A stretch of 46,617 bases of DNA. Origin: a virus (Duplodnaviria > Heunggongvirae > Uroviricota > Caudoviricetes). The notes under the pieces were generated by a model. It was not told where the DNA came from and made no database searches. It saw nothing but the letters and a program-made list of their open reading frames with translations. A program made the translations under genes and the position numbers. The stretch lies in IMG/VR virus record IMGVR_UViG_2541047681_000006; one strand, 5' to 3'. Shown here piece by piece: positions 4,789 to 23,062 of this stretch (the first letter of the stretch is position 1; every line of letters begins with the position of its first letter).

Positions 4789-4886
4789 CTTTCATTAATC
4801 CCTGAATTGTTGGTTAATACGCTTGAGGGTGAATGCGAATAATAAAAAAGGAGCCTGTAGCTCCCTGATGATTTTGCTTTTCATGT

Positions 4887-5168
4887 TCACCGTTCCTTAA
4901 AGACGCCGTTTAACATGCCGATCGCCAGGCTTAAATGAGTCGGTGTGAATCCCATCAGCGTTACCGTTTCGCGGTGCTTCTTTAGTACGCTACGGCAAAT
5001 GTCATCGACGTTTTTATCCGGAAACTGCTGTCTGGCTTTTTTGATTTCAGAATTAGCCTGACGGGCAATGCTGCGAAGGGCGTTTTCTTGCTGAGGTGTC
5101 ACTGAACAAGCCCCATGTCGGCAAGCATAAGCACACAGAATATGAAGCCCGCTGCCAGAAAAATGCAT
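4887..5168 (-). CDS. hypothetical protein
   Basis: 93-aa ORF between the zinc-finger gene and exo-proximal small ORFs; start uncertain. Confidence 0.3.
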   Translation of the reverse strand: MHFSGSGLHILCAYACRHGACSVTPQQENALRSIARQANSEIKKARQQFPDKNVDDICRSVLKKHRETVTLMGFTPTHLSLAIGMLNGVFKER

Positions 5169-5178
5169 TCAGTGGTTG

Positions 5179-5370
5179 TCATACCTGGTCTCTCTCATCT
5201 GCTTCTGCTTTCGCCACCATCATTTCCAGCTTTTGTGAAAGGGATGTGGCTAACGTATGAAATTCTTCGTCTGTTTCTACTGGTATTGGCACAAACCTGA
5301 CTCCAATTTGAGCAAGGCTATGTGCCATCTCAATACTCGTTCTTAACTCAACAGGAGATGCTTTGTGCAT
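5179..5370 (-). CDS. hypothetical small protein (lambda orf60a-region-like)
   Basis: 63-aa ORF in the position of the small lambda ORFs upstream of exo. Confidence 0.4.
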   Translation of the reverse strand: MHKASPVELRTSIEMAHSLAQIGVRFVPIPVETDEEFHTLATSLSQKLEMMVAKAEADERDQV

Positions 5371-5531
5371 ACCGCCTCCCGTTTATTATTTATCTTCTCA
5401 GCCAGCCGCTGTGCTTTCAGTGGATTTCTGATAACAGAAAGGCCGGGAAATACCCAGCCTCGCTTTGTAACGGAGTAGACGAAAGTGATCGCGCCTACCC
5501 GGATATTATCGTGAGGATGCGTCATCGCCAT
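5343..5531 (-). CDS. hypothetical small protein
   Basis: 62-aa ORF immediately downstream of exo on the same strand. Confidence 0.4.
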
Positions 5532-6202
5532 TGCTCCCCAAATACAAAACTAATTTCAGCCAGTGCCTCGTCCATTTTTTCGATGAACTCCGGCACCATC
5601 TCGTCAAAACTCGCCATGTACTTTTCATCCCGCTCAACCACGACATAATGCAGTCCTTCACGCTTCATACGCGGGTCATAGTTGGCAAAGTACCAGGCAT
5701 CTTTTCGCGTCACCCACATGCTGTACTGCACCTGGGCCATGTAAGCCGATTTTATGGCCTCGAAACCACCGAGCCGGAACTTCATGAAATCCCGGGAGGT
5801 AAACGGGCATTTCAGCTCAAGGCCGTTGCCGTCACTGCATAAACCATCGGGAGAGCAGGCGGTGCGCATACTTTCGTCGCGATAGATGATCGGGGATTCA
5901 GTAACATTCACGCCGGAAGTAAACTCAAACAGGGCTCTGGCGTCGTTCTCGTACTGTTTTCCCCAAGCCAGCGCCTTAGCGTTAACTTCCGGAGCCACAC
6001 CGGTGCAAACCTCAGCAAGCAGGGTGTGGAAGTAGGACATTTTCATGTCAGGCCATTTCTTTCCGGAGCGGGGTTTTGCTATCACGTTGTGAACTTCTGA
6101 AGCGGTGATGACGCCGAGCCGTAATTTGTGCCATGCATCATCCCCCTGTTCGACAGCTCTCACGTCGATCCCGGTACGCTGCAGGATAATGTCCGGTGTC
6201 AT
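5522..6202 (-). CDS. exo: lambda exonuclease (Red alpha)
   Basis: 226-aa ORF near-identical to remembered lambda Exo ([40 protein letters not shown]...). Confidence 0.95.
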
Positions 6203-6984
6203 GCTGCCACCTTCTGCTCAGTGGCTTTCTGTTTCAGGAATCCAAGAGCTTTCACTGCTTCGGCCTGTGTCAGTTCTGACGATGCGCGAATGTCGCGGCG
6301 AAATATCTGGGAACAGAGCGGCAATAAGTCGTCATCCCATGTTTTATCCAGGGCGATCAGCAGAGTGTTAATCTCCTGCATGGTTTCATCGTTAACCGGA
6401 GTGATGTCGCGTTCCGGCTGACGTTCTGCAGTGTATGCGGTATTTTCGACAATGCGCTCGGCTTCATCCTTGTCATAGATACCAGCAAATCCGAAGGCGA
6501 GACGGGCACACTGAATCATGGCTTTATGCCGTAACATCCGTTTGGGATGCGACTGCCACGGCCCCGTGATTTCTCTGCCTTCGCGGGTTTTGAATGGTTC
6601 GCGGCGGCATTCATCCATCCACTCGGTAACGCAGATCGGATGATTGCGGTCTTTGCGGTAAATCCGGCATGTACATGATTCATTGTCCTGCTCAAAGTCC
6701 ATACCATCAAACTGCTGGTTTTCATTGATGATGCGGGACCAGCCATCAACGCCCACCACCGGAACAATGCCGTTCTGCTTATCAGGGAAGGCGTAAATTT
6801 CTTTCGTCCACGGATTAAGGCCGTACTGGTTGGCGACGATCAACAATGCGATGAACTGCGCATCGCTGGCATCACCTTTAAATGCCGTCTGGCGAAGAGT
6901 GGTGATCAGTTCCTGTGGGTCGACAGAATCCATGCCGACACGTTCAGCCAGCTTCCCTGCCAGCGTTGCGAGTGCTGTACTCAT
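6199..6984 (-). CDS. bet: Red beta single-strand annealing protein
   Basis: 261-aa ORF matching lambda Bet; 4-nt overlap with exo. Confidence 0.95.
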
Positions 6985-6989
6985 CCGTT

Positions 6990-7286
6990 TTATACCTCTG
7001 AATCAATATCAGCCTGATGGTGAGCAATGGTTTCAACTATGTACCGGATGTGTTCTGCCATGCGCTCCTGAAACTCAACATCGTCATCAAACGCACGGGT
7101 AATGGCTTTTTTGCTGGCCCCGTGGCGTTGTAAATGATCGATGCATAGCGATTCAAACAGGTGCTGGGGCAGGCCTTTTTCCATGTCGTCTGCCAGTTCT
7201 GCCTCTTTCTCTTCACGGGCGATCTGCTGGTAGTGACGCGCCCAGCTCTGAGCCTCAAGACGATCCTGAATGTAATAAGCGTTCAT
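6990..7286 (-). CDS. gam: Gam, RecBCD inhibitor
   Basis: 98-aa ORF matching the short form of lambda Gam ([21 protein letters not shown]...DIDSEV). Confidence 0.9.
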
Positions 7287-7361
7287 GGCTGAACTCCTGA
7301 AAATGGCTGTGAAAATATCGCCCGCGAAATGCCAGGCTGATTAGGAAAACAGGAAAGGGGG

Positions 7362-7505
7362 TTAGTGAATGCTTTTGCTTGATCTCAGTTTCAGTATTAA
7401 TATCCATTTTTTATAAGCGTCGACGGCCTCACGAAACATCTTTTCATCGCCAATAAAAGTGGCGATAGTGAATTTAGTCTGGATAGCCATAATTGTTTGA
7501 TCCAT
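7362..7505 (-). CDS. kil: Kil, host cell-division inhibitor
   Basis: Internal ATG at 7505 gives a 47-aa product [47 protein letters not shown] matching lambda Kil. Confidence 0.8.
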
Positions 7506-7638
7506 TTTTTGGGACTCCTGGCTGATTAAGTATGTCGATAAGGCGTTTCCATCCGTCACGTAATTTACGGGTGATTCGTTCAAGTAAAGATTCGGAAGGG
7601 CAGCCAGCAACAGGCCACCCTGCAATGGCATATTGCAT
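7474..7638 (-). CDS. cIII: CIII, FtsH inhibitor / CII stabiliser
   Basis: 54-aa ORF (below the ORF-track cutoff) translated by hand: [54 protein letters not shown], matching lambda CIII; overlaps kil in another frame. Confidence 0.8.
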   Translation of the reverse strand: MQYAIAGWPVAGCPSESLLERITRKLRDGWKRLIDILNQPGVPKNGSNNYGYPD

Positions 7639-7710
7639 GGTGTGCTCCTTATTTATACATAACGAAAAACGCCTCGAGTGAAGCGTAATTGGTATGCGGT
7701 AACGCCGCGC

Positions 7711-8079
7711 TCAGGCGGCCTTGATAGTCATATCATCTGAATCAAATATTCCTGATGTATCGATATCGGTAATTCTTATTCCTTCACTACCATCCATTGG
7801 AGGCCATCCTTCCTGACCATTTCCATCATTCCAGTCGAACTCACACACAACACCATATGCATTTAAGTCGCTTGAAATTGCTATAAGCAGAGCATGTTGC
7901 GCCAGCATGATTAATACAGCATTTAATACAGAGCCGTGTTTATTGAGTCGGTATTCAGAGTCTGACCAGAAATTATTAATCTGGTGAAGTTTTTCCTCTG
8001 TCATTACGTCATGGTCAATTTCAATTTCTATTGATGCTTTCCAGTCGTAATCAATGATGTATTTTTTGATGTTTGACAT
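7711..8079 (-). CDS. ea10: Ea10-like protein
   Basis: 122-aa ORF in the lambda ea10 position between cIII and ral; matches remembered Ea10. Confidence 0.65.
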   Translation of the reverse strand: MSNIKKYIIDYDWKASIEIEIDHDVMTEEKLHQINNFWSDSEYRLNKHGSVLNAVLIMLAQHALLIAISSDLNAYGVVCEFDWNDGNGQEGWPPMDGSEGIRITDIDTSGIFDSDDMTIKAA

Positions 8080-8093
8080 CTATTCATATCCTC

Positions 8094-8125
8094 ATAGATA
8101 AAAAATCGCCCTCACACTGGAGGGC
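8094..8125 (-). terminator. intrinsic terminator between ral and ea10 (tL2-like)
   Basis: On the minus strand: stem GCCCTC/GAGGGC with 6-nt loop, followed by a T-run (GATTTTTTAT). Confidence 0.45.
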
Positions 8126-8261
8126 AAAGAAGATTTCCAATAATCAGAACAAGTCGGCTCCTGTTTAGTTACGAGCGACATTGCTCCGTGTATTCACTCG
8201 TTGGAATGAATACACAGTGCAGTGTTTATTCTGTTATTTATGCCAAAAATAAAGGCCACTA

Positions 8262-8462
8262 TCAGGCAGCTTTGTTGTTCTGTTTACCAAGTTCTCTGGC
8301 AATCATTGCCGTCGTTCGTATTGCCCATTTATCGACATATTTCCCATCTTCCATTACAGGAAACATTTCTTCAGGCTTAACCATGCATTCCGATTGCAGC
8401 TTGCATCCATTGCATCGTTTGAATTGTCCACACCATTGATTTGTATCAATAGTCGTAGTCAT
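8262..8462 (-). CDS. ral: Ral, restriction alleviation protein
   Basis: 66-aa ORF matching lambda Ral (MTTTIDTNQWCGQFKRCNGCKLQSECMVKPEEMFPVMEDGKYVDKW...). Confidence 0.85.
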   Translation of the reverse strand: MTTTIDTNQWCGQFKRCNGCKLQSECMVKPEEMFPVMEDGKYVDKWAIRTTAMIARELGKQNNKAA

Positions 8463-8532
8463 ACGGATAGTCCTGGTATTGTTCCATCACATCTTGAGGA
8501 TGCTCTTCGAACTCTTCAAATTCTTCTTCCAT
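8446..8532 (-). CDS. orf28-like acidic peptide
   Basis: 28-aa ORF translated by hand (MEEEFEEFEEHPQDVMEQYQDYPYDYDY); corresponds to the small lambda ORF upstream of ral. Confidence 0.45.
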   Translation of the reverse strand: MEEEFEEFEEHPQDVMEQYQDYPYDYDY

Positions 8533-8675: not shown

Positions 8676-9257
8676 ATGAACAACTCATGGTGGCAGGAAC
8701 TAATGCATTTTTTCCTGCAAGGAATGACACTTAAACAGTTGATTCATATGCTAATCATCCTGATCATATTGATTATTGTTATGCCGGTAAGCGTAAAAGA
8801 ATGGATAAACCTGCATAGTCCAGAAATCCTTCCTCATTACTGGATGTATTACATCCTGTTGTTTTGCGTTAGCTATGTGCTTAACGGCGTTGTTAATTCC
8901 GCTTATCACGCTGTGACTGAAAGAATTGAGGTATTCGCTGCTCAGAAGCGCAAATCTAAAGAAGAAAAATATGTGCAAGATTTGTTTGATTCGTTAACTC
9001 TTGGAGAAAGAGCGTATTTGGCATTCGCTGTAGCCGCTAATAACCAGCTACAAACGGAAAAGGGCGCTCATGAATCAATTTCATTGCTCAAAAAAGGACT
9101 CCTCGTTCGAAGGCCTCCTGCTGTTGGATATCCTGATACCGACCGTTTCGTTATCCCTGAAAGCTATAGACATGAGTGCTACATTAGGTTTGCCGGGAAG
9201 GCAGACAGCCTTATGGATGAACTTATCGCTCAGGATAAGCATGGCAAAAACAAGTAA
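8676..9257 (+). CDS. sieB: SieB superinfection exclusion protein
   Basis: 193-aa ORF with N-terminal hydrophobic segment, on the strand opposite the pL operon as in lambda; matches remembered lambda SieB. Confidence 0.85.
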   Translation: MNNSWWQELMHFFLQGMTLKQLIHMLIILIILIIVMPVSVKEWINLHSPEILPHYWMYYILLFCVSYVLNGVVNSAYHAVTERIEVFAAQKRKSKEEKYVQDLFDSLTLGERAYLAFAVAANNQLQTEKGAHESISLLKKGLLVRRPPAVGYPDTDRFVIPESYRHECYIRFAGKADSLMDELIAQDKHGKNK

Positions 9258-9982: not shown

Positions 9983-10735
9983 TTATGCTGCAAGTCTCTT
10001 AACCCAAGTCTCTCTTTTGGAGAATGGTAGAACTTGGCTTGATTCATGGAAGAGTAAGGAGAGTTGTTGCATTTGATCACCAATTGCTTCGCTGTCTATA
10101 ACAACAAATCTGTTGTTATACTCCTCACTTGAAGCTTTAAGATCAATTAGTTTCCCAAGCAATGAGTAAGCACTATTCCAGCTTCCTCCGTGTTTCACGC
10201 TTGATGTAAAAACGTATTTAGGTATGTCGGTTTTTATTGTTACAGGGACGGTAATTTGATGTCCACTCAAGCCATATACGTTTTCACGAAGAGAAAGTGC
10301 GTCTCTAAGCTCTGTGTGATATAGATAATCAATAACCATACTTTCAAACTTTTCAGCTTGAACTGGCTGATACCAGTCTAACGACAAAGTTGATGCGAGT
10401 ATACCAGCTCTAATTATGTTCGATGTAATCGCACCGACATCCTTTTCTGTTGCCCAAGCAATGATTTCTCCTCGAGCATTGAGTTCTGCGCCTTCTTTAA
10501 GCAGTAATTGTCGTATCTCATCAAGTCGTTTTTTGGTAAGCGAGATCCCTCTTGCCTCCATATTCATTAAGGCATCGCATCTGTCACTAACTAAATACCT
10601 ACCATTGACTTCACGGATAAAGGCACCGACATGCTCTCCATCATCACAGTAAGTGAATGGACTGATAATTCTCAAGGTCTTGCCTATTGGATGGCATTCG
10701 AAACCTAGTTGTGAGATCACTGTTGAGCACATCAT
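9983..10735 (-). CDS. hypothetical protein (distal gene of the rex-position operon)
   Basis: 250-aa ORF; start ATG overlaps the upstream stop (ATGA at 10732-10735); AT-rich; no family recognised. Confidence 0.6.
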   Translation of the reverse strand: MMCSTVISQLGFECHPIGKTLRIISPFTYCDDGEHVGAFIREVNGRYLVSDRCDALMNMEARGISLTKKRLDEIRQLLLKEGAELNARGEIIAWATEKDVGAITSNIIRAGILASTLSLDWYQPVQAEKFESMVIDYLYHTELRDALSLRENVYGLSGHQITVPVTIKTDIPKYVFTSSVKHGGSWNSAYSLLGKLIDLKASSEEYNNRFVVIDSEAIGDQMQQLSLLFHESSQVLPFSKRETWVKRLAA

Positions 10736-11289
10736 ATTCCAAACCCCATTTGCCCCGACTCATCTTCAAGCGGTAAAGGTATTCTCCCAGAGTAAGTTAT
10801 GTTCAGATGTTTACAGAAGTAATTCCAATACCCTACCAGGTCATCTGGGTTTATGTCATCTTCGATTGGAAACGCTATTCTATCACTATAGTATCCAGCT
10901 TCTTCATAGTATACATGGTAGTGAGCACCGTAAATGATATCTTGGTACTTCGGATGATCGACCTTGTAACTATTCGTGTGTTTGTCAAAGTGATAGGTAT
11001 CTACCGCGAAAACCCTCTTGTTATGATAGAAAGCAATAATATTTATTTTAGGGTAAGAAATCGGGTCATCAGGTTCTGAATCCTGATCTGGTTTCCATTT
11101 CAGTTCAAACTTTAGCCCTTGTATAGGTATACAATCCTCATCCAAGGGGATGATATGGGCTTGTAGCCACATATCAGAGCGACTTGGTTTCTGTTTCCAT
11201 TTAACGCCAGAAAAGTTAACTATTTTTTTACAATAAAGTATTGTATCAACTTCTACTTGGCTTGGCTGATAATCATCTATTTTTGCCAA
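10732..11289 (-). CDS. hypothetical protein (proximal gene of the rex-position operon)
   Basis: 185-aa ORF 40 nt downstream of cI on the same strand; acidic, Tyr/His-rich (YHVYYEEAGYY); AT-rich; no family recognised. Confidence 0.6.
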   Translation of the reverse strand: MAKIDDYQPSQVEVDTILYCKKIVNFSGVKWKQKPSRSDMWLQAHIIPLDEDCIPIQGLKFELKWKPDQDSEPDDPISYPKINIIAFYHNKRVFAVDTYHFDKHTNSYKVDHPKYQDIIYGAHYHVYYEEAGYYSDRIAFPIEDDINPDDLVGYWNYFCKHLNITYSGRIPLPLEDESGQMGFGI

Positions 11290-17588: not shown

Positions 17589-18671
17589 TTAGAACTGATA
17601 AACCAGACCTACAGCGACGATGTCGTCGGTATCAATACCAGCTGTTTTGGTAAACTTACTATCGTCAATTAAGTTGATTTTGTAATCAACAAAAGTGGAC
17701 ATGTTTTTATTAAAGTAGTAAGTAGCACCGACATCGACATACTTGACTAAGTCTCGGTCACCATGAACACCAAGGTCTTTACCTTTTGACTGAAGGTAAG
17801 CAACAGATGGACGCAGACCGAAGTCAAACTGATATTGTGCTACTGCTTCAAAGTTTTGTGCTTTGTTTGCAATATGGTTATTACCAAAAACGGTCATATT
17901 CTGAGTTTCAGAATATGTGGTAGCCAGATAGATATTGTTCGCATCATATTTCAGGCCTGCAGCCCATACTTCCGCATTTTTGCCGGAGGCATTGAATTTG
18001 CTCTTACCATAGGCGACCTGACCGTCAGTGCGATCTGATTTAGCATAGGTTGCACCCACGCCGAATCCTTCATACTCATAAGTAGTGGAGAAACCGAAAC
18101 CATCACCATTGGCTTCAGTTACGTCAGTGCGGTCATTTTTACCCTGATACTGAGCAGCAAAGTTCAGGCCATCGACCAGACCAAAGAAGTCGTTGTTACG
18201 ATAAGTTGCAACACCAGTAGTGCGACCAGTCATGAACACATCTGTTTGGGTCCAGGTATCACCACCGAATTCTGGCAGAACGTCAGTCCACGCACCGATG
18301 TCGTATGCTACACCGTAGTTACGGCCGTAATCGATTGAGCCGTAATCACCAAATTTCAGGCCTGCAAATGCAAGACGGGTTTTGTCTTTGGAAGAACCTT
18401 GAGATTCAGCACGGTTGCCTTTGAATTCATATTCCCACTGACCGAAACCAGTCAGTTGATCGTTGATTTGGGTTTCACCTTTGAAGCCAAGACGGGCATA
18501 AGTAGTATCACCATCATCTGCATCATTAGAGGAGAAGTAGTGCTTGGCATTAACTTTCCCGTATAGATCCAGCTTGTTACTGTCTTTATTATAAATTTCA
18601 GCTGCCTGAGCAGACATCGCCATCAGTACTGATGCAGCTACAGCAGAAATTGCCACTGTTAATTTTTTCAT
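17589..18671 (-). CDS. OmpC-family outer-membrane porin (NmpC / Lc type), phage-borne
   Basis: 360-aa product from ATG 18671 with signal peptide [23 protein letters not shown] and C-terminal ...VGLVYQF beta-barrel signature; located between Q and the lysis genes as in DLP12 and phage PA-2. Confidence 0.9.
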
Positions 18672-19097
18672 TGTACGCCCTTTTTTTGAACTATTATTAA
18701 AAAATGATGTCACTGCGCGATAAATATTCATCTAATCAATGTGATTATTTCAAGATGTAAGTTTTAGTTTCTCATTTAATTTGTGAAGTAGATCTCTATT
18801 TTTATCTGAACCTTTTCTATCTAATCCTATTCATGGCTCTTGTCTGAACAAAAATAAATCTATTAGCTAATTTATATTAATGGCACTTATTTATAAGTGC
18901 TCTATAATTCTTTAGCTTAATTTAAACAAACTAAAAATAACATCGGAAATTATTAACTGGTTATTTGTTGAAGTTTTCTTATGCATTTGTGGTGGTGTTT
19001 TGAACACTCGGTGGCATTCTCACAAATATCATTTAGTAGTTTACGTACGTAAAAAATTGGTTATGCTGTTAAGAGTGGTTACTTCGTCACACAGCTT

Positions 19098-19130
19098 AAA
19101 CCCGCCGTCGAGCGGGTTTTTCCATTTTTT
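19098..19130 (+). terminator. terminator-like hairpin upstream of the lysis cassette
   Basis: CCCGC-CGTCGA-GCGGG stem followed by TTTTTCCATTTTTT. Confidence 0.35.
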
Positions 19131-19475: not shown

Positions 19476-19972
19476 TGCCTCCATCATTACGAAAAGCCGT
19501 TGCTGCTGCTATTGGTGGCGGAGCAATTGCTATAGCATCAGTGTTAATCACTGGCCCAAGTGGTAACGATGGTCTGGAAGGTGTCAGCTACATACCATAC
19601 AAAGATATTGTTGGTGTATGGACTGTATGTCACGGGCATACAGGAAAAGACATCATGCTCGGTAAAACGTATACCAAAGCAGAATGCAAAGCCCTCCTGA
19701 ATAAAGACCTTGCCACGGTCGCCAGACAAATTAACCCGTACATCAAAGTCGATATACCGGAAACAATGCGCGGCGCTCTTTACTCATTCGTTTACAACGT
19801 GGGTGCTGGCAATTTCAGAACATCGACGCTTCTTCGCAAAATAAACCAGGGCGATATCAAAGGCGCATGTGATCAGCTACGTCGCTGGACATATGCTGGC
19901 GGTAAGCAATGGAAAGGTCTCATGACTCGTCGTGAGATTGAGCGTGAAATCTGTTTGTGGGGTCAGCAATGA
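19475..19972 (+). CDS. R: SAR endolysin (lysozyme R21 type)
   Basis: 165-aa ORF with N-terminal Gly/Ala-rich signal-anchor-release segment ([18 protein letters not shown]) and lysozyme-like core; ATG overlaps the holin stop. Confidence 0.9.
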
Positions 19973-20430
19973 ACAGAGTAACCGCGATTATCTCCGCTCT
20001 GGTTATCTGCATCATCGTCTGCCTGTCATGGGCTGTTAATCATTACCGTGATAACGCCATTACCTACAAAGCCCAGCGCGACAAAAATGCCAGAGAACTG
20101 ACGCTGGCGAACGCGGCAATTACTGACATACAGATGCGTCAGCGTGATGTTGCTGCGCTCGATGCAAAATACACGAAGGAGTTAGCTGATGCGAAAGCTG
20201 AAAATGATGCTCTGCGTGATGATGTTGCCGCTGGTCGTCGTCGGTTGCACATCAAAGCAGTCTGTCAGTCAGTGCGTGAAGCCACCACCGCCTCCGGCGT
20301 GGATAATGCAGCCTCCCCCCGACTGGCAGACACCGCTGAACGGGATTATTTCACCCTCAGAGAGAGGCTGATCACTATGCAAAAACAACTGGAAGGAACC
20401 CAGAAGTATATTAATGAGCAGTGCAGATAG
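19969..20430 (+). CDS. Rz: Rz i-spanin
   Basis: 153-aa product from ATG 19969 with N-terminal TM segment and coiled-coil periplasmic domain. Confidence 0.8.
20189..20371 (+). CDS. Rz1: Rz1 o-spanin lipoprotein (embedded in Rz, +1 frame)
   Basis: 60-aa ORF with lipobox (LVVVGC) and proline-rich mature part, wholly inside Rz. Confidence 0.7.
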
Positions 20431-20461
20431 AGCTGCCCATATCGATGGGCAACTCATGCAA

Positions 20462-20755
20462 TTATTGTGAGCAATACACACGCGCTTCCAGCGGAGTATA
20501 AATGCCTAAAGTAATAAAACCGAGCAATCCATTTACGAATGTTTGCTGGGTTTCTGTTTTAACAACATTTTCTGCACCACCACAAATTTTTGCTGCATCG
20601 ACAGTTTTCTTCTGCCCAATTCCCGAAACGAAGAAATGATGGGTGATGGTTTCCTTTGGTGTTACTGCTGTAGGTTTGTTTCCAACAGTAAACGTCTGTT
20701 GAGCACATCCTGTAATAAGCATTGCCAGAGCGGCAGAAAACAACATTTTTTTCAT
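20462..20755 (-). CDS. bor: Bor lipoprotein (serum-resistance factor)
   Basis: 97-aa product from ATG 20755 (MKKMLFSAALAMLITGCAQQTFTV...) matching lambda Bor; opposite strand to the late operon. Confidence 0.85.
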   Translation of the reverse strand: MKKMLFSAALAMLITGCAQQTFTVGNKPTAVTPKETITHHFFVSGIGQKKTVDAAKICGGAENVVKTETQQTFVNGLLGFITLGIYTPLEARVYCSQ

Positions 20756-21235
20756 CTTATTATCCTGCATTGTTAAAAACGGCAGAATCCTATGTGACAA
20801 CAATTAAACGATAGTTAAATGGATTGATGAAAATTAAAACTACACAGGTGGGCTCAGACTATTGGAGGAAGTTGGGGACACTCAGAATCCTGTGGAATGA
20901 AATAAACCGGTCTATCCGTCCATTACCCTTTTAGCTGCGCTGTATCGTCGCCGTATTCCCGCATTAACCATGACCGTAGCCCGACGGGGAATTCCTTCTG
21001 CGTGAGTGTGCGGGAATAATTAAAAACGATGCACACCGGGTTTTTACCGCGTTAATGATTCGCGGGTTTATCCCGGTGCGATGGTGGAAGAAACAGGAAG
21101 CTGTATTACAGAAAGTGCTACTACTGTATCCCGATGCGATGTATGTAATGTGAGTCAGATAATGGCACAGGATGTGGTGATGTGGCAGTCTGGAACACAG
21201 GATATATTGTCAGAATAAGACCCGTAGGAATAAAA

Positions 21236-21562
21236 ATGAAAAGACGCCTTTTACTACTTTTTCTGTTATCTGTCCTGGCAGTGGGATGCTCGCAGCAAAA
21301 AGCTGATGAGCCCCGGCAATTAGTGACGGTGTATCCACGATATCCGGAATATGCTGCAGCAAATTATATCAAGGGGCTGGTTGAGGTTAAGTTCGATATT
21401 GGTGCTGATGGGACTGTGACACGGATCGTTTTTCTCCGCTCAGAGCCTCATAATTTGTTTCGTGATGAAGTGGTGAAGGCCATGGCGAAATGGCGATTTG
21501 AAAAGAATCGCCCCTGTCAGGGAGTGAAGAGACAATTTATCTTTACGCCGTCACGTCCTTGA
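21236..21562 (+). CDS. lipoprotein with TonB C-terminal-like domain
   Basis: 108-aa product from ATG 21236 with RBS AGGAA; lipobox LAVGCSQ; YPRYPEYAAANYIKGLVEVKFDIGADGTV...WRFE resembles the TonB C-terminal domain. Confidence 0.6.
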   Translation: MKRRLLLLFLLSVLAVGCSQQKADEPRQLVTVYPRYPEYAAANYIKGLVEVKFDIGADGTVTRIVFLRSEPHNLFRDEVVKAMAKWRFEKNRPCQGVKRQFIFTPSRP

Positions 21563-21684
21563 TGCTTCCAGGTAGAGAGGGGCTGGAAGCAGGAGAAAAA
21601 TGAAAGAGCCAGCGGTTATATTTTTGTCATGGCTGACGAGGAATGATGGAAGAAGGCGTTGTATGCCACACAACGCCTCACTGT

Positions 21685-22038
21685 TCATTTCTTCTTTTTC
21701 TCTGGTGGAACCCGATGAATAAGAGTTGCACTGGTTTCCGATGAGATGGCGATATACTCGGGCAAAGTATGCTGGCAGTTTTCCAACTGGTCAAAAATAC
21801 CTGCTCTCGTCTGTTGCAATGCCTGCAGCATGCGGCGGCAATGCGCCTTGCTTTTACTAACCATCTTTCCTTCCTCTATCAGTCGCTGCGTGAACTCATC
21901 ATGGAATACCAGGTAAATGCGGATGTTATCGGTTTTGGCTACGCAGCATAGTACAAAACGGACAGGTGCATCCCGGGACGGGGGAGGCGTCACATGTCCC
22001 TGTGATGGTTGTTCCGGGTAATGTACTGTGTGGGGCAT
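21685..22038 (-). CDS. hypothetical protein (doubtful)
   Basis: 117-aa ORF in the cargo region; overlaps a plus-strand ORF; no support beyond ORF length. Confidence 0.25.
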   Translation of the reverse strand: MPHTVHYPEQPSQGHVTPPPSRDAPVRFVLCCVAKTDNIRIYLVFHDEFTQRLIEEGKMVSKSKAHCRRMLQALQQTRAGIFDQLENCQHTLPEYIAISSETSATLIHRVPPEKKKK

Positions 22039-22177
22039 AAAAATGTCCGATAATTTTACTTTCTACCGCAGTTAGTTGATTCGTTGGTCCTGGTAGCACA
22101 TTGGGCGAGGATTTAAATGCCAGGCAACTGAAGGATGATGTCGCAAGGGAGATAGCGAGAATATTTCTGATTTTCAT
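21926..22177 (-). CDS. hypothetical small secreted Cys-rich protein
   Basis: Internal ATG at 22177 gives an 83-aa product with a signal-peptide-like N-terminus (MKIRNILAISLATSSFSCLA) and Cys-rich C-terminus. Confidence 0.35.
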   Translation of the reverse strand: MKIRNILAISLATSSFSCLAFKSSPNVLPGPTNQLTAVESKIIGHFYAPHSTLPGTTITGTCDASPVPGCTCPFCTMLRSQNR

Positions 22178-22325
22178 TTGATGATGCCTCTGTGTGAAAT
22201 GACGGTAAACGACGCACTTGTGCCGGCACATAATAGCAAGCACCATAATAGATCAGATTCGATTCTTGCTGTAAGTGATAATTATTCTCGTTTTCGGGTC
22301 CTTTCCGTCGATCCAACAGGTTACG

Positions 22326-22337
22326 GGGCGGCGACCT
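22326..22337 (+). other. cosN cohesive-end site (lambda-type)
   Basis: Exact GGGCGGCGACCT followed by CGCGGTTTTTCACTATTTATGAAAATTTT, nearly identical to lambda cos; cosB region continues to the Nu1 start. Confidence 0.8.
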
Positions 22338-22513
22338 CGCGGTTTTTCACTATTTATGAAAATTTTTCAGGGAAAATCGTGTCGGTACTTCTCGAATATA
22401 ACTTTTTGTTTTTTTTAATATTGCATCCGTAAAGGTCCGACATGAAAGTGTCCGAAAATGCCTTTTTCTGGCGTTTTCATGTCGGGCCTTGTATTTGATA
22501 ATGGGTTGTTTTC

Positions 22514-23062
22514 ATGAAGGTTAATAAAAAGAGGCTTGCCGAAATTTTCAACGTGGACCCGCGGACGATTGAACGCTGGCAGTCTCAGGGACTCCCTTGC
22601 GCCTCCAAAGGTAGTAAGGGCATTGAATCTGTATTTGATACTGCCATGGCAATTCAGTGGTATGCGCAGAGGGAAACTGATATCGAAAACGAAAAGCTCC
22701 GCAAAGAACTGGACGATTTGCGTGCGGCAGCGGAGTCAGATTTACAACCCGGCACCATTGACTATGAACGCTACCGGCTCACAAAAGCGCAGGCAGATGC
22801 GCAGGAACTGAAAAATGCCCGTGAAGACGGAGTAGTGCTGGAAACTGAACTGTTTACCTTCATTCTGCAACGTGTGGCACAGGAGATTTCGGGGATACTT
22901 GTGCGTGTGCCGTTGACATTACAGCGTAAATATCCGGACATTTCACCATCACACCTTGATGTGGTGAAAACTGAAATCGCGAAAGCCTCCAATGTTGCAG
23001 CTAAGGCCGGTGAAAACGTGGGCGGGTGGATCGATGATTTCAGACGCGCAGAAGGCAGCTAA
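22514..23062 (+). CDS. nu1: terminase small subunit (Nu1)
   Basis: 182-aa ORF matching lambda Nu1 (M.VNKK.LA.IF...ENEKLR...[25 protein letters not shown]). Confidence 0.9.

What the first reader, a model, noticed from the sequence alone, without database searches (positions are those of the whole stretch)
20462..22246. Cargo cluster between the lysis cassette and cos: Bor, a TonB-C-terminal-domain lipoprotein and a small secreted Cys-rich ORF
Seen in sequence: after Rz/Rz1 come bor (minus strand), a plus-strand gene with lipobox and a TonB C-terminal-like domain (21236-21562), and a minus-strand ORF with a signal-peptide-like N-terminus (21926-22177). Inference: a free TonB C-terminal domain anchored as a lipoprotein could compete with host TonB for TonB-box receptors (a possible exclusion mechanism against TonB-dependent phages or colicins) or act as an envelope virulence factor. 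This is speculative.
Basis: inference. Interest (0 to 1): 0.55.

Follow-up and report, generated by a model that had tools for sequence, protein, structure and literature searches.

The report
Prophage lipoprotein copy of TonB's tip
Between its lysis genes and cos, this phage-21-type E. coli prophage carries three small exported-protein genes; one is a lipid-anchored copy of only the receptor-binding end of TonB, found in about 30% of complete E. coli genomes, which probably jams the TonB-dependent entry routes used by rival phages and colicins, though this has not been tested.

Summary
The window is phage PhiR57_1. Its 19.3-22.3 kb region is identical to the right end of classic lambdoid phage 21 and to a prophage in Nissle 1917, LF82 and APEC strains.

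Three real genes lie between Rz/Rz1 and cos:
- **bor/iss** (20462-20755, minus strand), 93% identical to lambda Bor.
- **A 108-aa lipoprotein** (21236-21562, plus strand). Its mature part is only a TonB C-terminal domain: Pfam 7e-13, AF2 pLDDT 87, 0.9-1.0 A rmsd to TonB in its FhuA and BtuB complexes.
- **An 83-aa exported Cys-rich protein** (21926-22177, minus strand), conserved in Salmonella, Klebsiella and Citrobacter.

The last two are under purifying selection (dN/dS 0.10-0.17). The other ORFs annotated between them look spurious.

The TonB-domain gene is not a fragment of host tonB (41% identity). It has no membrane helix and no proline-rich rod. Its lipobox is conserved in diverged alleles, and it sits just after the lysis cassette in E. 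coli, Klebsiella and Rahnella phages. It occurs in 1617 of 5426 complete E. coli genomes and is transcribed in LF82 lysogens.

A non-energisable decoy for Ton boxes is the best-supported mechanism, but it remains inferred. I found no paper that tests it. The gene is already catalogued, so interest is moderate.

The parts
20462..20755 (-). bor/iss: outer-membrane lipoprotein Bor (97 aa, lipobox LITGC)
   Evidence: Pfam Lambda_Bor 1.1e-30. 93% identical to lambda Bor. RefSeq calls it Iss. Lambda DNA homology runs 19969-20809 at 94.7%.
20936..21105 (.). Conserved non-coding block. Main stem-loop arms at 20954-20963 and 21009-21018; second hairpin at 21034-21040 and 21072-21078. It forms the left part of the cassette shared with the EHEC-type allele.
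   Evidence: Alignments A4 and A5. 97% of cells paired and 3 pairs with compensatory changes, with 1-3 of 500 shuffles reaching the observed values. RNA fold z = -2.55 on the plus strand. No Rfam match. Present in 432 phage records.
21208..21216 (+). Candidate extended -10 promoter element TGTCAGAAT (TGTTAGAAT in the EHEC-type allele). The ribosome-binding site AGGA lies at 21226-21229.
   Evidence: Read from the sequence and conserved in alignment A4. Not found by the consensus promoter scan. This is an inference.
21236..21562 (+). 108-aa lipoprotein made of a TonB C-terminal domain only. Signal peptide and lipobox: codons 1-18 (21236-21289). Tether: codons 19-25. TonB_C domain: codons 26-108 (21311-21559). 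Stop codon: 21560-21562.
   Evidence: 41% identity to E. coli TonB residues 150-230; dN/dS 0.12; lipobox; transcribed in an LF82 lysogen.
21926..22177 (-). 83-aa exported Cys-rich protein. N-terminal signal peptide with an invariant Cys18 (SSFSC|LAF). C-terminal motif GTCDASPVPGCxCPFCTMLRS.
   Evidence: Homologues at 54-78% identity and the same length in Salmonella, Klebsiella and Citrobacter. dN/dS 0.10-0.17. Intact in close variants. No Pfam, NCBIfam, PHROG or PADLOC match. AF2 pLDDT 49, so no fold could be assigned.
22296..22326 (+). cosQ (GGGTCCT, 22296-22302) and the cosN nick (22325/22326): the right-hand limit of the cargo region.
   Evidence: Register with the phage 21 record end and its cosQ feature, and the sequence itself.

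Best explanation
This is the accessory-gene ('moron') region of a phage-21-type lambdoid prophage. It holds three small envelope-protein genes that are not needed for lytic growth.

(1) Bor/Iss is the known outer-membrane serum-resistance lipoprotein.

[quoted passage not shown] A tether of about 7 residues holds a complete TonB C-terminal domain there. The protein has no TonB transmembrane helix and no proline-rich rod, so ExbB-ExbD cannot energise it. The most likely mode of action is that it pairs its beta3 strand with the Ton box of ligand-loaded TonB-dependent transporters (FhuA, FepA, CirA, BtuB and others), or with the Ton boxes of incoming colicins. That would occupy the site real TonB needs and so damp TonB-dependent import. 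The benefit to the lysogen, or to the late-infected cell, would be lower sensitivity to TonB-dependent phages (T1, phi80) and to group B colicins and microcins.

(3) The 83-aa Cys-rich exported protein is a real, conserved gene. It travels with bor in Salmonella, and its function is unknown.

Shown here: gene reality, fold, lipobox, purifying selection, distribution, position in the genome and, from the literature, transcription in lysogens. Inferred: outer-membrane localisation, Ton-box binding and the exclusion phenotype. My confidence that the protein is a TonB C-terminal-domain lipoprotein is about 0.95. The figure given below is for the decoy mechanism.
For: - **Fold and extent.** The match covers TonB residues 150-235, and co-crystals of FhuA used TonB residues 158-235. 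The model superposes on TonB taken from the BtuB and FhuA complexes at 1.0 and 0.9 A.
- **Signature residues kept.** Equivalents of P161, Y163, P164, G174, G186, F202 and W213 are invariant or nearly so across the family, and F230 is kept in this protein. The beta3 strand is present.
- **Position 160.** TonB residue 160 is the Ton-box contact region. The phage protein has Tyr there and the EHEC-type allele has Leu, the same residue as the classical suppressor TonB(Q160L).
- **Missing parts.** There is no transmembrane helix and no Pro-rich spacer. The N-terminus is a lipoprotein signal instead.
- **Conserved lipobox.** The lipobox, with no Asp at +2, is kept in alleles at 72%, 41% and 32% identity.
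- **Conserved position.** The gene sits just downstream of the lysis cassette, on the late-operon strand, in E. coli, Klebsiella and Rahnella phages.
- **Selection.** dN/dS is 0.12.
- **Prevalence.** 1617 of 5426 complete E. coli genomes and 173 IMG/VR contigs carry it.
- **Expression.** In LF82 prophage Perceval it is transcribed 8-fold above the prophage background (PMC9928086 Table 1).
- **Precedents.** Howard et al. [quoted passage not shown] I confirmed the title; further details are from my own knowledge. T5 Llp and HK022 Cor are small phage outer-membrane lipoproteins that exclude phages through the TonB-dependent transporter FhuA.
Against: - There is no experimental test in any paper I could find.
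- Two TonB residues implicated in receptor contact differ: Q160 becomes Y33 and R166 becomes Y39. Binding could be altered or lost.
- A potent TonB blocker would cost the host iron and B12 uptake, yet the gene is in about 30% of E. coli genomes. Either the dose is low (only 8-fold above background in lysogens) or the effect is weak or selective.
- A decoy has to titrate the abundant receptors, not the scarce TonB, so it needs a high copy number.
- Related exported TonB_C-only proteins sit in ordinary chromosomal contexts: Erwinia and a cellulose-synthesis locus. This hints at a housekeeping envelope role for the wider family.
- Phage 21's receptor is LamB, and the J C-terminus here is identical to phage 21's. 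There is therefore no self-exclusion logic.
- PADLOC has no model for it.
Confidence: 0.5

Rival explanations
1. Envelope or virulence factor not based on Ton-box competition. The lipid-anchored TonB C-terminal domain would bind peptidoglycan or abundant envelope proteins (Lpp, OmpA) and stabilise or remodel the envelope. It would act alongside Bor/Iss and the prophage porin in serum or host survival.
For: It is co-located with bor/iss and, upstream of the lysis genes, a prophage OmpC/NmpC-type porin. All of these are transcribed in lysogens. Relatives occur in non-phage chromosomal loci. Reports that the TonB C-terminal domain contacts peptidoglycan, Lpp and OmpA are from my own knowledge and were not checked here.
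Against: The conserved residues are the TonB signature residues around the Ton-box site. Nothing specific points to a peptidoglycan-binding surface. The EHEC-type phage cassette carries the gene without bor, so it is not tied to Bor.
Confidence: 0.2
2. Tuner of host nutrient uptake or signalling rather than a defence. It would bind Ton boxes, but the selected benefit would be throttling or biasing particular transporters. Examples are limiting iron or haem overload, or altering FecA-type surface signalling, in gut or extraintestinal niches.
For: It shares the structural basis of the main explanation. It is common in ExPEC, APEC, AIEC and Nissle-type strains, which are rich in siderophore systems. 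In LF82 the same prophage also carries the TonB-independent SitABCD Fe/Mn importer.
Against: No Fur-box-like sequence was seen upstream when I compared the region with the consensus by eye (10 of 19 matches in both alleles, sequences). The gene lies in the late operon after the lysis genes, so it should be made in bulk in cells about to lyse, which fits a phage-centred role better. No data bear on this directly.
Confidence: 0.15
3. Lysis accessory (spanin-like) protein, as the label 'Rz-like spanin' on PHROG 1267 implies.
For: PHROG 1267 matches the full length at 5e-43 and is filed under lysis. The protein is an outer-membrane-type lipoprotein encoded just after the lysis cassette in several phages.
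Against: The phage has its own Rz and embedded Rz1 (19969-20430 and 20189-20371). The gene lies 800 nt downstream, with bor on the opposite strand in between. Its mature part is a globular TonB_C domain, not a proline-rich o-spanin. It is transcribed in uninduced lysogens. The PHROG label most likely comes from position and the lipobox.
Confidence: 0.03
4. Dead fragment of a captured tonB gene, as labels such as 'TonB fragment' and 'partial tonB-like' suggest.
For: Those labels appear in several records.
Against: It is only 41% identical to E. coli TonB. It has its own signal peptide and lipobox, conserved across alleles. dN/dS is 0.12 with saturated synonymous sites. It is intact in 1612 genomes and transcribed.
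Confidence: 0.02

Closest known systems
C-terminal domain of E. coli TonB (residues ~150-239; PDB 1U07, 1XX3, 2GSK, 2GRX)
   Same: Same fold (TM-score normalised to the target 0.84-0.92, rmsd 0.9-1.5 A) and 38-41% sequence identity. The YP motif, G186, F202 and W213 equivalents and the Ton-box-pairing beta3 strand are all kept.
   Different: There is no N-terminal transmembrane helix and no proline-rich rod, and no link to ExbBD. A lipoprotein signal replaces them. The Q160 and R166 equivalents are Tyr. The protein ends at the equivalent of TonB T235. It is phage-borne.
Engineered periplasmic TonB fragments (Howard, Herrmann, Stratilo and Braun 2001, J Bacteriol 183:5885)
   Same: A TonB C-terminal region exported without its membrane anchor. 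The paper's title states that it inhibits FecA- and FhuA-mediated transport (title seen).
   Different: Those were laboratory constructs of host TonB, soluble in the periplasm and over-produced. This is a natural, diverged, lipid-anchored protein whose activity is untested. The paper itself was not held.
Phage superinfection-exclusion lipoproteins Cor (HK022, phi80, N15) and Llp (T5)
   Same: Small phage-encoded outer-membrane lipoproteins, 77 aa for Cor with lipobox MLSGC. Llp binds the TonB-dependent transporter FhuA from the inner leaflet side (abstract).
   Different: No sequence similarity beyond the signal peptide. Cor and Llp are specific for FhuA, the receptor of their own phage. This phage uses LamB, and a TonB domain would in principle address all Ton boxes.
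Lambda Bor / plasmid and prophage Iss
   Same: The bor gene here is 93% identical to lambda Bor, in the same place and orientation after Rz.
   Different: None of note. This is an ordinary family member.
Exported single-domain TonB_C proteins of other Gammaproteobacteria (e.g. Erwinia P0202, Serratia P0206, Rahnella P0111)
   Same: 100-130 aa, a signal peptide or lipobox followed by one TonB_C domain, 30-45% identity.
   Different: Some are chromosomal and not phage-linked. Several carry a C-terminal G-V/L-P-F/Y-R tail that is absent here. None has a described function in the literature I could search.

Membership tests
TonB_C domain (Pfam PF03544 / TIGR01352) | Profile score above the curated cut-off | tested here: met
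   PF03544 at 49.2 bits against 24.6. TIGR01352 at 47.4 bits against 27.1.
TonB_C domain (Pfam PF03544 / TIGR01352) | The TonB C-terminal domain fold: short helix, beta-hairpin, helix, and a C-terminal strand completing a 3-stranded sheet | tested here: met
   AF2 elements H38-42, E47-55, E61-70, H76-83, E94-103 with pLDDT above 95. The top 16 Foldseek hits in the PDB are all TonB or FusB C-terminal domains.
TonB_C domain (Pfam PF03544 / TIGR01352) | Conserved YP motif and aromatic/Gly signature (TonB Y163, P164, F180, G186, F202, W213, F230) | tested here: met
   The phage protein has Y36, P37, F53, G59, F75, W86 and F103 at those positions. Y36, G59, F75 and W86 are invariant and P37 nearly so in the family alignment.
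TonB energy transducer (bona fide TonB) | N-terminal transmembrane anchor that couples to ExbB-ExbD | tested here: not met
   The N-terminus is a cleavable lipoprotein signal, MKRRLLLLFLLSVLAVGC|S. NCBIfam TonB equivalog models match only their C-terminal ~85 positions and score far below their cut-offs, for example 69 against 315.
TonB energy transducer (bona fide TonB) | Proline-rich periplasm-spanning spacer | tested here: not met
   Only about 7 residues (SQQKADE) lie between Cys18 and the first domain residue. The BLASTP alignment covers TonB 150-230 only.
Bacterial lipoprotein (SPase II substrate) | Lipobox with Cys at position 15-35 after a positively charged n-region and an uncharged h-region | tested here: met
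   The PROSITE PS51257-style rule is met at C18. The lipobox is conserved in the EHEC-type (LVMGC|T), Klebsiella (MLLGC|S) and Rahnella (LSAC|T) homologues. No allele has Asp at +2.
Bacterial lipoprotein (SPase II substrate) | Actual acylation and outer-membrane localisation | not testable with these tools
   This needs globomycin or palmitate labelling and membrane fractionation.
Cor/Llp-type superinfection-exclusion lipoproteins | Sequence homology to Cor or Llp | tested here: not met
   BLASTP against HK022 Cor aligns only the signal peptide (E 0.08). Llp was not compared.
Cor/Llp-type superinfection-exclusion lipoproteins | Blocks infection through a TonB-dependent transporter | not testable with these tools
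   No phenotype data were found. There is no PADLOC model.
Rz1-type o-spanin (label of PHROG 1267) | Lipoprotein gene embedded in, overlapping or adjacent to the i-spanin gene, with a proline-rich mature part that pairs with Rz | tested here: not met
   A separate Rz1 lies at 20189-20371 inside Rz. This gene is 800 nt further on, beyond bor. Its mature part is a globular TonB_C domain.
Lambda Bor / Iss (PF06291) | Profile match, lipobox, and position after Rz on the opposite strand | tested here: met
   1.1e-30 at 106 bits against a cut-off of 25. 93% identical to lambda Bor. Synteny with lambda.

The most novel reading that the evidence does not exclude
A natural dominant-negative TonB is carried by temperate phages. 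An outer-membrane-tethered TonB C-terminal domain would cap the Ton boxes of many transporters, and of incoming colicins, at once. That would give lysogens broad tolerance to TonB-dependent phages, group B colicins and siderophore-microcins. It would be a receptor-independent, pathway-level exclusion determinant present in roughly 30% of E. coli genomes, including Nissle 1917, ExPEC, APEC and EHEC.
Probability: 0.4. Interest if true: 0.65.

Novelty: new variant of a known kind. Interest (0 to 1): 0.4.

Why it matters
If the decoy idea is right, a very common prophage gene would explain part of the strain-to-strain variation in E. coli sensitivity to group B colicins, microcins and TonB-dependent phages. 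It could also bear on sensitivity to siderophore-conjugated antibiotics, which rely on TonB-dependent uptake (my extrapolation, not examined here). It would add a pathway-level mode to the receptor-specific exclusion shown by Cor and Llp. It would also give a natural tool for probing TonB-transporter coupling.

If the idea is wrong, the locus is simply a well-conserved moron region of phage 21-type prophages. Either way, three annotation points are worth correcting:
- The gene is not a 'TonB fragment' and not an 'Rz-like spanin'.
- The 83-aa minus-strand gene is real but is missed by RefSeq and by the phage 21 annotation.
- The plus-strand hypothetical proteins annotated in its place are probably not genes.

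Tried and rejected
- **Fur box upstream of the TonB-domain gene.** I compared the conserved GATAAT region by eye with the 19-bp consensus. It matches 10 of 19 positions in both alleles, which is not convincing (sequences).
- **Consensus promoter and terminator scan.** It gave no more sites than shuffled sequence and nothing upstream of the gene. The extended -10 element I propose rests only on conservation.
- **Rfam.** No family matches the region.
- **PADLOC.** No hit for any of the three proteins.
- **Structure of the 83-aa protein.** pLDDT 49, so I ran no fold search.
- **The search for related loci with the family alignment.** It failed because no stretch was conserved enough. The single-protein scan returned almost only identical copies.
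- **Colicin link.** A Serratia homologue lies next to a pore-forming colicin and its immunity gene. In another strain the same flank holds a SIR2 gene instead. The TonB_C gene therefore borders a variable island, and I do not count the adjacency as evidence.
- **Self-exclusion through the phage's own receptor.** Rejected. The J C-terminus is identical to that of phage 21, whose native receptor is LamB.
- **ORFs annotated between 21563 and 21925** (plus-strand 40 aa and 60 aa, minus-strand 59 aa) **and 22113-22316.** In 98-99.6% identical variants they acquire stop codons or a frameshift. The last one spans cosQ. I rejected them as genes.
- **Literature.** Ten searches found no functional study. 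The source paper for the PhiR phages is not in the library, and Howard et al. 2001 is not held.
Full report
**Identity of the window and locus.** The window matches Escherichia phage PhiR57_1 (PV340572.1, host ECOR13) coordinate for coordinate across this region. The TonB-domain protein is 100% identical, and the DNA from 21563 to the cos end is identical, to the right end of the classic lambdoid phage 21 (OL657228). The whole 2.1-kb stretch 20400-22520 is identical to a prophage in E. coli Nissle 1917, ATCC 11775 and many ExPEC and APEC genomes. Of 5426 complete genomes, 821 hold at least 80% of it. The TonB-domain gene and the DNA downstream of it are also identical in LF82 phage Perceval. 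The gene order is a prophage OmpC/NmpC-type porin (minus strand), holin, SAR endolysin, Rz with embedded Rz1, bor (minus strand), the TonB-domain gene (plus strand), the 83-aa gene (minus strand), cos, then terminase Nu1 and A. cosQ (GGGTCCT) is at 22296-22302. The phage 21 record ends at window position 22325, and GGGCGGCGACCT follows directly.

**Check of the observation.**
- Bor (20462-20755, minus strand) scores 1.1e-30 on Pfam Lambda_Bor and is 93% identical to lambda Bor.
- The 108-aa ORF (21236-21562, plus strand) passes the curated cut-offs of Pfam TonB_C and TIGR01352.
- A profile of this protein and its relatives matches the sequences of solved E. coli TonB C-terminal domains at about 1e-25 across the whole mature protein.
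- An AlphaFold2 model built on a 20-sequence alignment has mean pLDDT 86.8, above 95 in the domain.
- Foldseek against the PDB returns only TonB or FusB C-terminal domains in its top 16. The model superposes on TonB taken from the BtuB complex (2GSK_B, 1.0 A over 79 columns) and the FhuA complex (2GRX_C, 0.9 A over 75).

**What the TonB-domain protein is and is not.** BLASTP aligns residues 23-103 with E. coli TonB 150-230 at 41% identity. That is far too diverged for a recent fragment of the host gene. The N-terminus, MKRRLLLLFLLSVLAVGC|SQQ, fits the PROSITE-type lipoprotein rule with Cys18. Only about seven residues separate the lipid-modified Cys from the first residue of the domain. There is no TonB transmembrane helix and no proline-rich rod, so the protein fails two defining features of a TonB energy transducer while fully meeting those of the TonB_C domain.

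The lipobox survives in three diverged alleles, and none has Asp at +2:
- the allele of EHEC Stx1a phages and JLK-2012 (72% identity, LVMGC|TQH),
- a Klebsiella phage (41%, MLLGC|SSS),
- a Rahnella prophage (32%, LSAC|TAY).

By the Lol sorting rule, which is established knowledge and was not tested here, this predicts the inner leaflet of the outer membrane. Between the phage 21 and EHEC-type alleles dN/dS is 0.12 with synonymous sites near saturation, so the protein is under purifying selection. Cys94 is not conserved: it is Arg in a close variant and in most EHEC-type alleles. No structural disulfide is therefore implied.

**Family and distribution.** A full HMMER scan of 1.84 billion cluster representatives gave 2795 hits at E up to 1e-3. 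Among the best 150 are about 20 proteins of 100-130 aa made of an export signal plus one TonB_C domain. Of 33 short homologues inspected, 10 or 11 have a lipobox under the two automatic rules, and a few more have one after an alternative start. Others have ordinary signal peptides.

The lipoprotein versions found in phages occupy the same slot: directly after the lysis cassette, on the late-operon strand, and before the small terminase subunit. This holds in phage 21-type and EHEC-type E. coli phages, Klebsiella phage ST13-OXA48phi12.4 and a Rahnella prophage. More distant relatives in Erwinia, Serratia and an unassigned cellulose-synthesis locus are chromosomal and not phage-linked.

In complete E. 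coli genomes the gene is present in 1617 of 5426. Of these, 1225 carry the phage 21 allele at 95% identity or more, and 392 carry the roughly 73%-identical EHEC-type allele. A scan of IMG/VR found 173 contigs. Annotators call it 'TonB family protein', 'TonB C-terminal domain protein', 'TonB fragment' or 'partial tonB-like membrane protein of CP-933N'. PHROG 1267, which it matches at 5e-43, is labelled 'Rz-like spanin'. I reject that label because the phage has its own Rz and Rz1 and the mature protein is a globular TonB_C domain.

**Expression.** The gene is on the same strand as the late operon, downstream of S, R and Rz, so Q-antiterminated late transcription should read through it. This is an inference from the gene order. 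In uninduced LF82 lysogens the identical gene (LF82_160, 'TonB fragment', prophage Perceval) is transcribed 8-fold above the prophage background. The authors listed it among the prophage's morons, together with the NmpC porin at 10-fold (PMC9928086 Table 1). The preprint version reports bor at 50-fold. A conserved TGTCAGAAT (TGTTAGAAT in the EHEC-type allele) at 21208-21216 could be an extended -10 element, with an AGGA ribosome-binding site 6 nt before the ATG. The consensus scan did not find a promoter there.

**Mechanism.** The domain corresponds to the part of TonB that was crystallised on FhuA and BtuB. There the transporter's Ton box adds a strand to the three-stranded TonB sheet, and 'the region around residue 160' makes the contact. 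The phage protein keeps that sheet and the TonB signature residues. At the position of Q160 it has Tyr. The EHEC-type allele has Leu, the residue of the classical suppressor TonB(Q160L).

Residue 160 lies close to the N-terminal end of the domain, so I infer that a short lipid tether at that end is geometrically compatible with docking under a transporter barrel. A protein that binds Ton boxes but cannot be energised should compete with TonB. The laboratory precedent is Howard et al. 2001, whose title states that the periplasmic domain of TonB made in vivo inhibits FecA and FhuA transport (reference seen; the paper is not held).

The natural analogues in architecture are the exclusion lipoproteins Cor (77 aa, lipobox MLSGC) and T5 Llp, which binds FhuA from the inner leaflet of the outer membrane (abstract). 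Cor shares no sequence with this protein beyond the signal peptide.

Phage 21's native receptor is LamB (PMC11336670), and the last 250 residues of J here are identical to phage 21's. Any exclusion would therefore be aimed at other agents: TonB-dependent phages, group B colicins and microcins. I put this mechanism at about 0.5. The main doubts are:
- the absence of any experiment,
- the changed Q160 and R166 equivalents,
- the expected cost to iron and B12 uptake for a gene carried by 30% of genomes,
- the existence of chromosomal relatives that suggest a more general envelope role.

**The third gene.** The minus-strand ORF (coding 21929-22177, stop 21926-21928) has a GAGG ribosome-binding site 9 nt upstream of its ATG. 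Full-length homologues of about 83 aa occur in E. coli, Citrobacter, Klebsiella and Salmonella at 54-78% identity. Cys18, Cys70, Cys72 and Cys75 are invariant. Cys62 is present in all 16 intact homologues and missing only from two frame-shifted hybrid sequences, P0038 and P0041. The conserved tail is GTCDASPVPGCxCPFCTMLRS.

DNA similarity to the Salmonella and Klebsiella loci begins and ends with the ORF (21924-22185), and dN/dS is 0.10-0.17. The gene is intact in three close variants. No library has a family for it, and AF2 gives no confident fold.

The invariant SSFSC|LAF also satisfies the relaxed lipobox rule, so it may be a lipoprotein rather than a signal-peptidase-I substrate. In Salmonella enterica subsp. 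salamae it lies directly upstream of a bor homologue on the same strand, among virulence-type genes: an omptin, a NEL effector and a SPATE autotransporter. On a Klebsiella replicon it lies near a cos remnant and next to Fur-family and CobW genes. In the window the TonB-domain cassette sits between this gene and bor. That suggests an older 83-aa/bor pair into which the cassette was inserted, or the reverse; this is inference.

RefSeq and the phage 21 annotation miss this gene and instead call plus-strand ORFs of 40 and 60 aa. PhiR57_1 calls minus-strand ORFs at 21685-22038 and 22113-22316. In variants 98-99.6% identical these acquire stop codons (E37*, E46*) or a 1-nt insertion, and the last one spans cosQ. 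I regard them as spurious.

**Module boundaries and a conserved element.** Lambda homology covers Rz and bor (19969-20809, 94.7%) and a further block at 20933-21043. The cassette shared with the EHEC-type allele runs from 20936 to 21545, so it starts 300 nt upstream of the gene. Its first roughly 170 nt (20936-21105) are non-coding and conserved in lambda, HK629, VT2-Sakai, many Stx1 and Stx2 phages and a Salmonella phage, 432 records in all. In some of these the block begins about 10 nt after Rz, with no bor and no TonB-domain gene.

The block contains a 10-bp stem (20954-20963 with 21009-21018). In eight sequences 97% of cells pair and three pairs show compensatory changes, with 1-3 of 500 shuffles reaching the observed values. 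It has no Rfam match. HK629's annotators placed a minus-strand promoter inside it. Its role is open: it could be a boundary sequence for moron exchange, a terminator or processing site, or the regulatory region of bor.

**Verdict.** The locus is already catalogued and one gene (bor) is well understood. What remains open, and directly testable, is whether a lipid-anchored TonB C-terminal domain carried by about 30% of E. coli genomes acts as a natural TonB decoy. I rate it a new variant of known kinds (the TonB family and phage exclusion lipoproteins). Interest is moderate at 0.4, because the idea follows from known TonB biology and the gene is not a new discovery.

Noticed in passing
window 20936-21105 (stem 20954-20963 / 21009-21018; second hairpin 21034-21040 / 21072-21078): A conserved non-coding structured block lies downstream of the lysis cassette. 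It is shared with lambda (46865-46974), HK629, VT2-Sakai, many Stx phages and Salmonella phage S135, 432 phage records in all. The main stem shows compensatory changes, and there is no Rfam family. In some Stx phages it starts about 10 nt after Rz, with neither bor nor the TonB-domain gene present. Its function is unknown.
   Followed up: partly
window 21563-21925 and 22113-22316: Different annotators call different 'hypothetical proteins' here: plus-strand 21600-21722 and 21769-21951, and minus-strand 21685-22038 and 22113-22316. In near-identical variants they acquire stop codons or a frameshift, and the last one spans cosQ. They are probably not genes, whereas RefSeq and the phage 21 annotation miss the real 83-aa gene.
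   Followed up: yes
L092-L094 (Salmonella enterica subsp. salamae), 5001-5739: The homologue of the 83-aa gene sits directly upstream of a Bor homologue on the same strand, flanked by an omptin, a NEL-type effector and a SPATE autotransporter. This suggests an 83-aa/bor pair that moves together.
   Followed up: partly
L089-L091 (Klebsiella, CP024459.1 and related contigs), about 4820-5252: The homologue of the 83-aa gene lies next to a 43-nt match to the cos region of the window and beside Fur-family and CobW genes. Together with its CxCxxC tail this hints at a metal-related role. Not pursued.
   Followed up: no
L101/L102 (Serratia) 6001-8510; L104: A secreted TonB_C-only homologue (P0206) is immediately upstream of a colicin-immunity gene and convergent with a pore-forming colicin gene. 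In another strain the same flank carries a SIR2 gene instead. The TonB_C gene borders a variable competition/defence island.
   Followed up: partly
proteins P0063, P0093, P0107, P0142, P0206: Several short exported TonB_C proteins outside E. coli end in a shared C-terminal tail, G-(V/L)-P-(F/Y/S)-R, that the phage protein lacks. Its meaning is unknown.
   Followed up: no
window 21236-21559 vs PHROG 1267: The PHROG family that holds this protein is labelled 'Rz-like spanin' (lysis), which looks like a mislabel propagated from position and the lipobox.
   Followed up: yes
window 8676-9254 (+) and 9983-11286 (-): A SieB superinfection-exclusion homologue (Pfam 9e-22) lies beside N. Between N and the cI-like repressor, in the position of lambda rexAB, are two minus-strand genes: one with a DUF1828 domain and one with a weak, sub-threshold DUF6978 match. 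They may be a defence pair.
   Followed up: no
window 17589-18731 (-): A prophage OmpC/NmpC-type porin gene lies between Q and the holin. It is annotated OmpC or OmpD and is transcribed 10-fold above background in LF82 lysogens, so it is another envelope moron of the same prophage. The region upstream of it (about 18650-19100) is very AT-rich, with GC of 0.26-0.29.
   Followed up: no
L110 (E. coli FY26) 784-1997, equivalent to about window 20935: In several APEC and ExPEC genomes an IS3-family element is inserted between iss and the TonB-domain gene, at the left edge of the conserved block. Both genes remain intact.
   Followed up: partly
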